A DNA stretch of 8,145 nucleotides, taken from IMG/VR virus record IMGVR_UViG_2690316231_000015; one strand, given 5' to 3'. Every line of letters starts with the position of its first letter. Within the stretch, counting starts at the first letter, position 1. The position numbers and the translations under genes are program-made. This document shows positions 2,781 through 5,230 of this stretch, piece after piece. The stretch comes from a virus (Duplodnaviria; Heunggongvirae; Uroviricota; Caudoviricetes). Under the pieces are notes generated by a model, which was not told the origin of the DNA, did no database searches, and saw nothing but the letters and a program-made list of their open reading frames with translations.

Positions 2781-2817
2781 TTTTAATTTCACTGAAATTT
2801 AATACGTGACTTTCAGG

Positions 2818-2847
2818 AAAATGCCTCGCAGATGCGGGGCATTTTTG
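2818..2847 (+). terminator. Rho-independent terminator after Rz (possibly bidirectional)
   Basis: Hairpin AUGCCUCGC (2821-2829) / loop AGAU / GCGGGGCAU (2834-2842): 9 bp with one G-U wobble, followed by UUUU (2843-2846). An A-tract (2818-2820) upstream gives a short U-tract on the other strand. Confidence 0.55.
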
Positions 2848-3139
2848 TACAGGTATTTCACCGCGCACCGCAGCGCACTCAACCACGTCGAACCAAACCC
2901 TTTGGAATGAGCCTTTGAGTAGTCAGTTAGTGCTGGTGAGCCTTGACGGGCTGATCTCCTATGCAGCAAAGGTTCATCTCAAAGTAAGACGAACGCTATG
3001 ACAAACCAAGATTCTATAGACCTATCTGATCTTCGTGGAATGGTCAGTTTTCCAGACAAAAGGTAATCACCATAGTCGTATGGCTATGAATCTTGTTGCT
3101 GCAGATAAGCATTTTGTGATTGAAGTGGTCAAATCTCTC

Positions 3140-3168
3140 AAATGCAGTAAAATGCAGTGCGCTATAAT
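3140..3168 (+). promoter_or_regulatory. Candidate sigma70 promoter for the 206-aa gene (consensus -10, weak -35)
   Basis: Perfect TATAAT at 3163-3168, 28 nt upstream of the ATG at 3197. No good TTGACA match at 16-18 bp spacing. Tandem AATGCAGT direct repeat at 3141-3158 just upstream. Confidence 0.3.
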
Positions 3169-3196
3169 TCAATAACGGAGGGAGTAAGGAGAAGTC

Positions 3197-3817
3197 ATGA
3201 AAGATCAAGATGTTAGGTTCGCGGTGCATCATAAGCTTTTGAAAGAATCGCATTTAGATCCAGACTGCCTTGTGGTCGATGAATTTTCCATATCCCTTGG
3301 CGCCAGTAGAGCAGACATTGCTGTAATAAATGGTGTTATACACGGGTACGAGCTCAAAAGTGAATATGACTCTTTGGAGCGTTTGCCTCTTCAAATCAAG
3401 CATTATTCTTCTGTAATGGACAAGGTTACTCTTGTCGTAGCTGAGAAACACCTTGAGGGAGCATTAAAGTTAATCCCAGGTTGGTGGGGCGTTAAAACGG
3501 TTTCTGTTGGGCCAAAAGGCGCCATTCTTATAAAGCACATGCGTGGAGAAAAGCTTAATCGAAACCATGACACATTGATGCTCGCTCAATTGCTTTGGAA
3601 AGATGAATGTATCGACGTACTTGAACGATGGGGCTATTCCAAAGGAATCAAAAGCAAGCCCCGATTTGAGTTATGGAATATTATTGCGGAAAATATTCCA
3701 ATAGCGAATCTCAGGCCTGAAGTCAGAACAGCCTTAAAGAAACGCGTAGGCTGGAAAGTTAAGGCTTGGCAGGCTGAGTCTGCGCCAACCAATAAAGCTG
3801 TCTCACGACTAACGTAA
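3197..3817 (+). CDS. Hypothetical protein with N-terminal PD-(D/E)xK nuclease-like motif (putative restriction-endonuclease-fold protein)
   Basis: 206-aa ORF with strong RBS (AAGGAG at 3186-3191, 5-nt spacer). Motif E29...D40...E52-L-K54 (VVDEF / RADIAVING / GYELK) in an alpha-beta-beta-beta arrangement typical of PD-(D/E)xK enzymes. Hand-counted GC ~43% in 3301-3400, lower than flanking phage genes. Confidence 0.7.
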   Translation: MKDQDVRFAVHHKLLKESHLDPDCLVVDEFSISLGASRADIAVINGVIHGYELKSEYDSLERLPLQIKHYSSVMDKVTLVVAEKHLEGALKLIPGWWGVKTVSVGPKGAILIKHMRGEKLNRNHDTLMLAQLLWKDECIDVLERWGYSKGIKSKPRFELWNIIAENIPIANLRPEVRTALKKRVGWKVKAWQAESAPTNKAVSRLT

Positions 3818-4826
3818 TATGGTGCGTATGTGCAACTTTACGCCATTCTTTAGAGCCGCCAGATTTGTTAGCGCCTAATGATCTTTGGTAAATGTAATCA
3901 TCCCCCCAACTAAATTTGGAGCCAAAGACTTGATACTCTGGCGAACTAACAAGGGTAGTACATAAGTTTTTAGTTTGGCCCCATCCATTTCCTTTAACTG
4001 CGGTACCTTTTACAAAGATCCATGAGGTATCGTTCGAATATCTCACTGAGACATACTGAGACATGAAGCGTGGGTCTACGCTCGTAATGGTAGAGCTAGC
4101 GGTGGGATAATCACTAAAACTTGGCGTTCTTCCATTGCTAAAATTCTGTACTACGTACATCCAAAGATCGTATTCATGGCGCGGAATATGATGAACTTGA
4201 TGTTGCGGTATCCCTGCCTGTGATGCCGGGTATGCGGTTGAAGATAAAATCAAGTTTCTCCACGGAGCTTGGCCTGATAATGTGTTGACCATGCTTAATG
4301 CTTGTTGTTTTAAACTATCAGTTGCGTTTTGAATATCTCCAAAATCAATGATTACATCAATTAAACTAGGATGAATATTTAAGTGGTTAACCAGACTTGT
4401 GAATTGGTGCCATGTCTGGGGGGTGATAGACATAGCGAGCCCATTGATTAAGTTGCGTTGAACAGCATGTATATAGTTTGTTGAATATGCGGGAGAAACA
4501 ACAGGGATAATTTCCTTACCATTTACTCTAGCATCTTGGATACACATATCTAGAGGATGATGGCGGCTCGAACCATGTTTATCTAAATATTTAACATCCA
4601 GCAAAACAGGACGATTGGCTTTCCAGGATGCCGCAAGGTTAATACCGAAGTCAGATAAGTAAGAACTCAAACTCTTCTTGTAGCATTCGTTTTCATAATC
4701 CCAGTCTATGTCTGGAATGGTAATGATCGGAGTAAAACCAGAGAGCGTAGTTTGATCTAAAAGCATCAGAGATTCATATTCAGCAGGCTTCCATTTCAGC
4801 TGTGGATAATATTGATGTTGACTCAT
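3759..4826 (-). CDS. Hypothetical protein, 355 aa, no recognisable motif; convergent partner of the 206-aa gene
   Basis: Long minus-strand ORF with strong RBS (AAGGAG, plus-strand complement CTCCTT at 4832-4837, 5-nt spacer to the ATG at 4826). Hydrophilic, rich in S/T/N/Q/W/Y/H, no TMD, no Walker motif. AT-rich (hand-counted GC 29% in 4301-4400, 48% in 4201-4300). Its 3' end overlaps the 206-aa gene by 59 bp. Confidence 0.7.
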   Translation of the reverse strand: MSQHQYYPQLKWKPAEYESLMLLDQTTLSGFTPIITIPDIDWDYENECYKKSLSSYLSDFGINLAASWKANRPVLLDVKYLDKHGSSRHHPLDMCIQDARVNGKEIIPVVSPAYSTNYIHAVQRNLINGLAMSITPQTWHQFTSLVNHLNIHPSLIDVIIDFGDIQNATDSLKQQALSMVNTLSGQAPWRNLILSSTAYPASQAGIPQHQVHHIPRHEYDLWMYVVQNFSNGRTPSFSDYPTASSTITSVDPRFMSQYVSVRYSNDTSWIFVKGTAVKGNGWGQTKNLCTTLVSSPEYQVFGSKFSWGDDYIYQRSLGANKSGGSKEWRKVAHTHHITLVVRQLYWLAQTQPAKP

Positions 4827-4868
4827 TAAAACTCCTTAAAATCTTTACTTATCCTAAGTATAGTGTTA

Positions 4869-4893
4869 TGGCGTAACGCCAATTGTTTTTATA
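4869..4893 (-). promoter_or_regulatory. Candidate promoter -10 plus palindromic operator-like site upstream of the 355-aa gene
   Basis: Minus-strand TATAAA (plus coordinates 4888-4893) about 60 nt upstream of the start. 13-bp palindrome TGGCGTAACGCCA (4869-4881) lies between the -10 and the RBS, where an operator would sit. No convincing -35. Confidence 0.25.
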
Positions 4894-5049
4894 CACTTGA
4901 AAACATTGGGAAAAGTTGAGCTATATCTAAATTTACAAAATTGGATGTTATAGAAATCGAGGTTTCAACTAGGCATGGAACTGCAAAATTTTTAATGCCT
5001 GCACGCGAAAGTCGTTGGCGGGTCCTTTCCGGTGATCCAGATCGTTACG

Positions 5050-5061
5050 GGGCGGCGACCT
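5050..5061 (+). other. cos: Lambda-type cos site: cosN cohesive-end sequence GGGCGGCGACCT, with flanking cosQ-like and cosB-like sequence (~5010-5130)
   Basis: 5050-5090 (GGGCGGCGACCTCGCGGGTTTTCGCTATTTATGAAAATTTT) is identical to the left end of the lambda genome as I recall it. Upstream GGGTCCTTTCCGGTGATCC...GTTACG resembles the lambda right end. Downstream CCGTTCTTCTTC (5107-5118) resembles a cosB R-site. Sits ~170 bp upstream of the Nu1-like gene. Confidence 0.85.
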
Positions 5062-5230
5062 CGCGGGTTTTCGCTATTTATGAAAATTTTTAGGGAAAAA
5101 TCAGATCCGTTCTTCTTCTTTTTAACTGATTGATTATCAATAGAATTTTAAAAATATAAAAGGATCTGACAAAGGCTGTTTTTGTTAGAAAACGCCATTT
5201 TCAGATCCTTTCTGGTTCCCGGGGGAGTGT

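What the first reader, a model, noticed from the sequence alone, without database searches (positions are those of the whole stretch)
3759..4826. 355-aa leftward-transcribed protein with no recognisable domain
A long, confidently translated ORF (strong AAGGAG RBS) with no TMD, no nucleotide-binding motif and unusual composition (many W, Y, H, S, T, N, Q). It is transcribed toward the lysis genes like lambda bor, but it is not Bor-like (no lipoprotein signal). Its own upstream region contains a -10-like element and a 13-bp palindrome, suggesting independent regulated expression. It is a candidate sensor or partner of the nuclease-fold protein.
Basis: seen in the sequence. Interest (0 to 1): 0.65.

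Follow-up and report, generated by a model that had tools for sequence, protein, structure and literature searches.

The report
Prophage beta–cII defence-type gene pair
The "domain-less" 355-aa protein belongs to the known phage P4 "beta" protein family and is paired with a nuclease gene, in a two-gene form of a known anti-phage system whose mechanism is still unsolved.

Summary
The ORF at 3759-4826(-) is real, with an AAGGAG ribosome-binding site, no membrane segment and odd composition. The claim of "no recognisable domain" is wrong. It matches Pfam PF14350 (Beta_protein) over its full length (E 8e-56), and RefSeq already names it "beta family protein". Its convergent neighbour (3197-3817, +) is an sce7726 / P4-cII family PD-(D/E)xK nuclease.

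The same DNA lies in lambdoid prophages of 127 of 5,426 complete E. coli genomes, as a low-GC insert between Rz and cos. Phage P4's gop-beta-cII and PD-lambda-2 are validated anti-phage systems that contain beta homologues. The window has neither gop nor PD-lambda-2 A/B.

In every locus sampled with enough flanking DNA, except one Rhizobium plasmid, beta has a convergent cII, usually with overlapping 3' ends. This holds from Proteobacteria to Gordonia phages. Beta is predicted with high confidence to be a TIM barrel with invariant acidic and His residues, and no solved relative.

Natural IS insertions break beta while cII stays intact, which argues against beta being an obligatory antitoxin. 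My best reading is a prophage superinfection-defence module with beta as the invariant hub and cII as the nuclease effector. It is a new variant of a known kind, of moderate interest.

The parts
3759..4826 (-). beta gene (355 aa): Pfam PF14350 Beta_protein, predicted TIM barrel
4832..4837 (-). Shine-Dalgarno AAGGAG, 5 nt before the ATG
   Evidence: The AAGGA core is conserved in orthologous loci of other genera.
3197..3817 (+). Partner gene (206 aa): sce7726 / Phage_P4_cII family PD-(D/E)xK nuclease with a C-terminal helical domain
3759..3817 (.). 59-bp overlap of the convergent 3' ends of beta and cII. It encodes the disordered tail of cII (residues 188-206) and the last 19 residues of beta
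   Evidence: Coordinates. cII tail pLDDT below 50. Gop-less loci overlap by 11-59 bp (4-14 bp gap in Vibrio and L061) and the Gordonia phage by 89 bp; P4-type loci do not overlap.
4838..5049 (-). Upstream non-coding region of beta. It holds the TATACT hexamer (4857-4862), the 13-bp palindrome (4869-4881), a conserved TATAAA (4888-4893) and a conserved block TTAGATATAGCTCAA (4916-4930)
   Evidence: The blocks are conserved across genera but the palindrome is not. No canonical -35 was found.
5050..5061 (+). cosN cohesive-end sequence GGGCGGCGACCT. The module is therefore the last element at the right end of the packaged genome
   Evidence: Identification as the lambda cohesive end rests on my own knowledge of the lambda sequence.
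3000..5200 (.). Low-GC island (35-45% against about 50-58% in the flanks) that carries the two genes: a moron-like insert between Rz and cos/nu1
   Evidence: Composition profile. Flanking gene identities.

Best explanation
The ORF encodes the beta component of a two-gene beta-cII cassette. Its partners are a Beta_protein TIM barrel and a P4-cII/sce7726 PD-(D/E)xK nuclease. The cassette is carried as a low-GC moron at the right end (Rz-cos) of a lambdoid E. coli prophage. It is a gop-less relative of the P4 gop-beta-cII anti-phage system and of PD-lambda-2.

Most likely it is expressed from the prophage and protects the lysogen against other phages by superinfection exclusion or abortive infection. 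Beta is the invariant hub that detects or relays the infection signal, possibly through an enzymatic activity of its barrel. It licenses the cII nuclease, which is the catalytic effector.

Shown here: family membership, fold predictions, conserved pairing, gene layout and the absence of gop.
Inferred: defence function in this two-gene form, the sensor and effector roles, and expression in lysogens.
For: Identity:
- Pfam, PHROG and PADLOC hits for beta and NCBIfam and PADLOC hits for cII.
- P4 has the same convergent beta/cII layout next to cos. Window beta against P4 beta gives E 2e-7 over the full length, and cII against P4 cII gives E 3e-19.

Defence precedent:
- gop-beta-cII protects against lambda and P1 (PMC9122126).
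- A phage accessory gene, orf184, triggers cell death through gop-beta-cII (bioRxiv 10.1101/2023.04.06.535777).
- PD-lambda-2C, a beta homologue, is required for defence but not for toxin neutralisation (PMC9519451).

Context:
- The cassette is a low-GC insert present in only 127 of 5,426 E. coli genomes.
- In other prophages the pair sits in classic lysogen-expressed or moron slots. These include the position directly downstream of, and co-oriented with, the S24 CI-like repressor in Acinetobacter and Pasteurella. They also include positions beside the integrase and between the lysis genes and terminase, often near HicAB or other candidate defence genes.

Hub role:
- Beta occurs with three accessory layouts: no accessory gene, gop, or PD-lambda-2 A+B with or without cII. 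cII was never seen without beta.
- Beta always diverges faster than cII, for example 28% against 53% identity with Rac-SA53.

Effector role of cII:
- The E-D-E-K catalytic set is invariant in 19 of 19 loci spanning Proteobacteria, P4 and Gordonia phages, and the fold is nuclease-like.

Beta as a likely enzyme:
- The model is a TIM barrel. E16, D161, D239 and H336 are invariant, and D77 is present in 18 of 19 loci. These residues lie at or just after strand ends.
Against: - No experiment addresses the two-gene form.
- The promoter upstream of beta is not convincing by consensus scan, and expression in lysogens is untested.
- Conserved catalytic-looking residues fit beta as an effector enzyme as well as a sensor.
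- In PD-lambda-2-type operons the upstream Xre-peptidase resembles CapH/CapP-type regulators. That would fit beta being the regulated effector.
- In P4, beta was described as neutralising Gop toxicity (Ghisotti 1990, as cited), which is antitoxin-like behaviour.
- I had no model coordinates, so clustering of the conserved residues in one pocket is inferred from secondary structure only.
Confidence: 0.55

Rival explanations
1. Beta is the catalytic effector, a TIM-barrel enzyme that acts on a nucleic acid or metabolite. cII, gop and the Xre-peptidase are interchangeable sensors or regulators that control it.
For: - Invariant acidic and His residues on a TIM barrel.
- Beta is the only component common to all three layouts, and it can occur without cII in L073.
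- PD-lambda-2B resembles CapH/CapP-type transcriptional regulators.
- PD-lambda-2C is required for defence.
- All three natural IS hits fall in beta and none in cII, although this is not statistically significant.
Against: - cII keeps a perfect nuclease catalytic set in 19 of 19 loci, which is unusual for a pure regulator.
- Gop is toxic without beta (cited), so toxicity does not need beta.
- Beta diverges faster than cII.
Confidence: 0.2
2. It is a classic toxin-antitoxin pair. Beta is an antitoxin or immunity protein that continuously neutralises a toxic cII nuclease, and infection removes beta.
For: - The literature calls beta the 'P4 antitoxin' because Gop is toxic without it.
- The gene pair is tightly linked and co-inherited, with Spearman 0.87 for pairwise identities.
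Against: - At least three E. coli genomes carry beta broken by IS1 or IS5 next to a cII gene that is complete and at least 99% identical. In the two inspected, its protein is the window-type WP_000654791.1. One viral contig also has a frameshifted beta with an intact cII.
- PD-lambda-2C is not needed to neutralise toxicity.
- A 355-aa TIM barrel with conserved catalytic-type residues is unlike known antitoxins.
- The genes are convergent, not a co-transcribed autoregulated operon.
Confidence: 0.1
3. It is a restriction-modification-like pair. Beta modifies self DNA or RNA, for example through a transglycosylase-like TIM barrel, and cII cuts unmodified nucleic acid. The convergent genes would allow staggered establishment.
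For: - The convergent layout resembles many R-M systems (my own knowledge).
- cII resembles restriction endonucleases in fold.
Against: - The DpdA/TGT similarity is no better than to dozens of unrelated TIM barrels.
- Natural beta knock-outs with intact cII are viable.
- There are no queuosine-pathway or cofactor genes nearby.
Confidence: 0.05
4. It is not a defence module but a phage life-cycle function, such as lysogeny control (as the P4 name cII suggests), DNA end processing near cos, or a lysis accessory.
For: - The gene lies 224 bp from cosN and next to the lysis cassette.
- P4 cII was named from a plaque phenotype (my own knowledge, not checked here).
Against: - The genes are described as non-essential in P4.
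- Their position in prophages varies: beside the repressor, beside the integrase, or between lysis genes and terminase. They also occur on plasmids and in non-phage chromosomal contexts.
- The cassette is present in only a minority of related prophages and has foreign GC content.
Confidence: 0.1

Closest known systems
Phage P4 gop-beta-cII (DefenseFinder/PADLOC Rst_gop_beta_cll; Rousset et al. 2022, PMC9122126; Ghisotti et al. 1990)
   Same: - Beta of identical length (355 aa) in the same Pfam family.
- A cII/sce7726-family PD-(D/E)xK partner.
- Convergent beta/cII orientation.
- Location next to cos on a mobile element.
   Different: - No gop gene.
- Only 22% (beta) and 27% (cII) identity to P4.
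- cII is about 60 aa shorter at the C-terminus.
- The 3' ends overlap by 59 bp, whereas P4 has a 27-bp gap with a terminator.
- The carrier is a lambdoid prophage, not a P4-like satellite.
- R216 and D309 of beta are kept here but lost in the P4 clade.
PD-lambda-2 (Vassallo et al. 2022, PMC9519451)
   Same: The C component is a Beta_protein homologue. It is the best PADLOC match of the window protein (E 4e-32). It is needed for defence.
   Different: - The window has no HigB-like A gene and no Xre-peptidase B gene.
- PD-lambda-2 as published has no cII, although a Sinorhizobium plasmid carries A-like, B, C and a convergent cII together.
Beta + cII-like pair of Escherichia phage Rac-SA53 (KU052037) and gene pair 33/32 of Gordonia phage Powerball
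   Same: The same gop-less, convergent, 3'-overlapping two-gene layout in temperate phages.
   Different: - They occupy different slots: the nin region in Rac-SA53 and the integrase/immunity region in Powerball.
- Beta identity is 24-30%.
- They are annotated only as 'hypothetical' and 'exonuclease', and none has been tested.
Lambda RexAB and other prophage superinfection-exclusion morons (functional analogy only)
   Same: An accessory gene pair carried by a temperate phage. In some prophages the beta-cII pair sits directly downstream of the repressor gene, as rexAB does (the rexAB position is my own knowledge).
   Different: There is no sequence or fold relationship. RexB is a membrane protein, and neither beta nor cII has a membrane segment.

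Membership tests
Pfam PF14350 Beta_protein ('beta family protein') | Full-length match to the family HMM above the gathering score | tested here: met
   190.3 bits against a cutoff of 27, E 8.3e-56. Protein residues 6-342 match profile positions 1-342 of 342.
Pfam PF14350 Beta_protein ('beta family protein') | Family-wide conserved residues (E16, D77, D161, D239, H336; also Y6, P8, P200, W328) | tested here: met
   All are present in the window protein. The exception is R133, which is at least 90% conserved in the family but is Ser here.
Pfam PF14350 Beta_protein ('beta family protein') | Single-domain protein of about 350-370 aa with a (beta/alpha)8 barrel fold | tested here: met
   355 aa. 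AF2 pLDDT 92.3. TIM-barrel matches only. This is a prediction, not a solved structure.
P4-type gop-beta-cII system (Rst_gop_beta_cll) | A beta gene | tested here: met
   PADLOC 'beta' E 3.3e-10. BLASTP against P4 beta gives E 2e-7 over the full length.
P4-type gop-beta-cII system (Rst_gop_beta_cll) | A convergent cII gene downstream of beta | tested here: met
   PADLOC 'cll' E 3.8e-31. BLASTP against P4 cII gives E 3e-19.
P4-type gop-beta-cII system (Rst_gop_beta_cll) | A gop gene (about 115-140 aa) immediately upstream of, and coupled to, beta | tested here: not met
   There is no ORF of 20 aa or more on the - strand between 4827 and cos. No small window ORF matches the gop HMM, whereas the upstream ORFs of P4-type loci do, at E 4e-12 to 5e-70.
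P4-type gop-beta-cII system (Rst_gop_beta_cll) | Anti-phage activity and trigger-dependent cell death | not testable with these tools
   Known only for the three-gene P4/ECOR59 versions.
PD-lambda-2 | C component (Beta_protein homologue) | tested here: met
   PDLC03984 E 4.1e-32 and PDLC03983 E 1.7e-25.
PD-lambda-2 | A HigB-like A gene and an Xre-HTH/peptidase B gene upstream | tested here: not met
   There are no such ORFs in 2781-5230. By contrast, L072 and L073 carry B at E 2e-77 and 1e-66.
Type II toxin-antitoxin pair (beta as antitoxin of cII) | The antitoxin gene cannot be lost while the toxin gene stays intact | tested here: not met
   Beta is interrupted by IS1 or IS5 in at least three complete E. 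coli genomes. cII is complete and at least 99% identical in all 127, and is the window-type WP_000654791.1 in the two loci inspected.
Type II toxin-antitoxin pair (beta as antitoxin of cII) | A co-directional, co-transcribed operon | tested here: not met
   The genes are convergent with overlapping 3' ends.
Lambda Bor-like lipoprotein moron | An N-terminal lipoprotein signal peptide with a lipobox | tested here: not met
   There is no hydrophobic N-terminus (maximum KD19 1.05, centred on residues 19-37). The Pfam assignment is also different.
PD-(D/E)xK nuclease superfamily (the partner protein) | A restriction-endonuclease-like fold with an E...D...ExK catalytic motif | tested here: met

The most novel reading that the evidence does not exclude
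The beta-cII pair, not gop-beta-cII, is the ancestral and widespread core of a two-enzyme immune module. In this reading a TIM-barrel enzyme of a previously uncharacterised type senses infection. It may do so by making, destroying or modifying a small molecule or nucleic-acid mark, and it thereby licenses a PD-(D/E)xK nuclease. The 3'-overlapping convergent transcription, conserved from Proteobacteria to Actinobacteria phages, would act as an antisense switch that sets the ratio of the two proteins. Gop and the PD-lambda-2 A/B genes would be add-on modules.
Probability: 0.2. Interest if true: 0.7.

Novelty: new variant of a known kind. Interest (0 to 1): 0.4.

Why it matters
Beta_protein is a large family: about 3,765 clusters at 50% identity in the 1.84-billion-protein library. 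It is present in two experimentally validated anti-phage systems, yet in the literature I could search nobody reports what it does.

The window offers the simplest natural form, two genes with no gop and no HigB/Xre-peptidase, in a well-studied host and phage type. That makes the open question directly testable: what is the role of the TIM barrel, and what is the role of the nuclease?

Current detection models that require gop, as I recall DefenseFinder's does, or PD-lambda-2 A/B would not report this two-gene form as a complete system. In my sample the two-gene form was the commonest layout.

For genome annotation the message is simple. This is not an orphan protein.

Tried and rejected
- Sequence search of beta, alone and as a 56-sequence profile, against all PDB chains gave only noise.
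- NCBIfam has no model that matches beta or nine diverse relatives. The NCBIfam scans of beta and nine relatives returned no sce7725_fam hit.
- A Pfam scan of 56 diverse family members found no second family or fusion partner.
- The Foldseek afdb50 library was not available.
- A genome-contig scan with alignment A1 returned only 7 loci.
- The phage collection has no near-identical DNA for the module. Only the first 221 nt after Rz match elsewhere.
- Ghisotti et al. 1990 (PMC249035) is not held, so P4 genetics are quoted second-hand.
- Rfam finds no RNA family in the window.
- I considered the 13-bp palindrome as an operator and rejected it as a conserved element, because it is absent from orthologous loci.
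- I considered a Bor-like function and rejected it, because there is no signal peptide and the family is different.
- I considered a hidden gop and rejected it.

Full report
**1. Observation**

The window is the late region of a lambdoid phage. In order it holds:
- a DUF6645-type ORF;
- a holin and a YdfR-like ORF;
- lysozyme R and Rz/Rz1;
- two convergent genes;
- cosN (GGGCGGCGACCT, 5050-5061);
- nu1, the large terminase gene and W.

The flagged ORF is real. It runs 3759-4826(-), encodes 355 aa and has AAGGAG 5 nt before its ATG. It has no hydrophobic segment and its composition is skewed: rich in S, Q, Y, H and W, and poor in E. The 13-bp palindrome at 4869-4881 exists.

The central claim, "no recognisable domain", is wrong.
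- The protein matches Pfam PF14350 (Beta_protein) end to end, at E 8.3e-56.
- It matches phrog_9159 at E 1e-152.
- It matches the PADLOC models PD-Lambda-2_C (4e-32) and 'beta' (3e-10).

**2. Where it comes from**

The 2,450 bases between Rz and nu1 are at least 98.8% identical, mostly 100%, to prophage DNA in 126 complete E. coli genomes. One example is strain 55989. RefSeq annotates the two genes there as "beta family protein" (WP_000077906.1) and "sce7726 family protein" (WP_000654791.1).

Searched separately, each gene is found in exactly 127 of 5,426 genomes, always at 99% identity or more. The two genes lie in a GC trough of 35-45%, against about 50-58% in the flanks. That is typical of an acquired moron.

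**3. The partner**

The 206-aa protein (3197-3817, +) has these features:
- It matches NCBIfam sce7726_fam (E 2e-54) and PADLOC 'cll'.
- Newer Pfam annotation calls it PF26915 Phage_P4_cII.
- E29, D40, E52 and K54 are invariant in 28 homologues. They are also invariant in 19 of 19 diverse loci, including P4 and a Gordonia phage.

**4. Relation to known systems**

Phage P4 (NC_001609) encodes gop (133 aa), beta (355 aa) and a convergent cII (264 aa, "sce7726 family") next to its cos site.
- Window beta against P4 beta: 22% identity over the full length, E 2e-7.
- Window cII against P4 cII: 27% identity, E 3e-19.

What the literature shows:
- gop-beta-cII protects E. coli against lambda and P1, and Gop is toxic without beta (PMC9122126).
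- A phage accessory gene, orf184, triggers cell death through it (bioRxiv 10.1101/2023.04.06.535777).
- In PD-lambda-2 the beta homologue (component C) is required for defence but not for neutralising the toxic component (PMC9519451).
- A 2024 survey still lists these genes as of unknown function.
- I found no mechanistic paper.

**5. What the window lacks**

There is no gop. No ORF of 20 aa or more lies on the beta strand between the ATG and cos. No small ORF in the window matches the gop HMM. That HMM does recognise the upstream ORFs of P4-type loci in Pseudomonas, Achromobacter and a metagenome. There is also no HigB-like or Xre-peptidase gene.

**6. Comparative anatomy**

I examined about 70 loci. 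With one exception, every beta gene with enough flanking DNA has a convergent cII. Three layouts appear:
- (a) Window type. No accessory gene, a short cII (about 186-220 aa), and 3' ends overlapping by 11-59 bp. Two lineages have a gap of 4-14 bp instead. It is found in E. coli, E. albertii, Klebsiella, Pantoea, Pectobacterium, Edwardsiella, Cronobacter, Vibrio, Acinetobacter, Pasteurella and Burkholderia, in Rhizobiaceae and Rhodococcus plasmids, and in phage Rac-SA53.
- (b) P4 type. A coupled gop, a long cII (229-270 aa) and no overlap.
- (c) PD-lambda-2 type. An Xre-peptidase gene (B) upstream of beta. A Sinorhizobium plasmid also has a convergent, overlapping cII, and a Rhizobium phaseoli plasmid does not. 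That plasmid is the one exception noted above.

Gordonia phage Powerball has the same pair with an 89-bp overlap. Its "exonuclease" gene 32 is a cII-family protein (hhalign E 1.6e-52).

The pair sits in moron or immunity slots:
- downstream of, and co-oriented with, the S24 repressor;
- beside the integrase;
- between the lysis genes and terminase, as in the window.

Pairwise identities of beta and cII are correlated (Spearman 0.87, from non-independent pairs). Beta always diverges faster than cII.

**7. The beta fold**

With a 26-sequence alignment AF2 gives pLDDT 92.3 and pTM 0.91, with alternating strands and helices.
- Foldseek agrees.

There is no solved relative by sequence or by profile. 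The family has about 3,765 clusters at 50% identity, nearly all single-domain proteins of about 355-370 aa.

Family-wide conserved residues include E16, D77, D161, D239 and H336. They lie at or just after predicted strand ends, where TIM-barrel active sites sit. This is an inference from secondary structure, because I could not inspect coordinates.

**8. Mechanism**

Natural knock-outs help here. In at least three E. coli genomes beta is interrupted by IS1 or IS5 while cII stays complete and at least 99% identical; in the two I inspected, its protein is the window-type WP_000654791.1. One viral contig has a frameshifted beta with an intact cII.

This argues against beta being an obligatory antitoxin, or a protective modifier, of a constitutively active nuclease. 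Three further observations point the same way:
- PD-lambda-2C is dispensable for detoxification.
- Beta is present in all three layouts.
- Beta evolves faster than cII.

The best-supported model is that beta is the invariant hub that senses or relays infection, possibly enzymatically. cII is the nuclease effector, and the module serves prophage-encoded defence.

The main rival is that beta is the enzymatic effector and its partners are regulators. The CapH/CapP-like nature of PD-lambda-2B fits that view.

**9. Regulation**

Upstream of beta, several blocks are conserved across genera: TTAGAT.TAGCTCAA, GTATAAAA, a TAnAAT hexamer and AAGGA. The palindrome is not conserved. The consensus scan calls no promoter there.

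Independent expression is therefore plausible but not shown. The conserved convergent overlap suggests antisense or interference coupling. That is speculation.

**10. Verdict**

This is a known protein family and a known kind of system, in a gop-less two-gene form. I found no published description or test of that form. The value of the locus is as a minimal model for an unsolved mechanism.

Noticed in passing
window 5050-5061 (+): An exact lambda-type cosN cohesive-end sequence, GGGCGGCGACCT, lies 224 bp from the beta start codon. The beta promoter region is therefore the extreme right end of the packaged DNA. P4's gop-beta-cII is also adjacent to cos.
   Followed up: partly
L070 (NZ_CP042892), L071 (NZ_CM128593), H60 (NZ_CM149886): Three E. 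coli genomes have the beta gene interrupted, by IS1 twice and IS5 once. In the two inspected (L070, L071) the neighbouring sce7726 protein is unchanged (WP_000654791.1). cII matches at 80% coverage or more in all 127 genomes.
   Followed up: yes
L060 5001-6069 (IMGVR_UViG_2636416134_000002): Beta is split into ORFs of 238 and 101 aa, either a frameshift pseudogene or a sequencing error. The convergent cII ORF is intact.
   Followed up: no
window 2781-3001 and hairpin 2818-2845: The first ~221 nt after Rz are about 87% identical to DNA annotated as 'rha/anti-repressor' in P22-like Salmonella phages such as BTP1. They contain a 13-nt-arm hairpin, AAAATGCCTCGCA/TGCGGGGCATTTT. This looks like a gene remnant or a terminator at the left edge of the insert.
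   Followed up: no
window 5159-5211: An inverted repeat with 23-nt arms (83% complementary, 7-nt spacer) lies between cosN and the nu1 start. It may be part of the cosB/terminase-binding region.
   Followed up: no
L072 1336-4639 (Sinorhizobium terangae plasmid pCB3126_2): A four-gene locus: a 132-aa ORF, PD-Lambda-2_B (Xre-HTH/peptidase, also similar to capP/capH), PD-Lambda-2_C (beta) and a convergent overlapping cII. It links PD-lambda-2 and gop-beta-cII into one modular family.
   Followed up: partly
L064 2864-8868 (Achromobacter contig): A gop-beta-cII unit sits directly downstream of an S24 CI-like repressor. Next to it are an AAA_15/AAA_21 ATPase and a 365-aa gene, probably a second defence system in the same prophage slot.
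   Followed up: no
window beta residue 133 (about nt 4428-4430): The window clade has Ser or Lys where at least 90% of the wider family has Arg (R133, on the predicted fifth barrel strand). The P4 clade instead lacks R216 and mostly lacks D309.
   Followed up: no
window 3197-3817: The local Pfam-A copy gave no hit for the 206-aa protein, whereas the precomputed annotation lists PF26915 Phage_P4_cII. The blank Pfam result is a library-version effect.
   Followed up: yes
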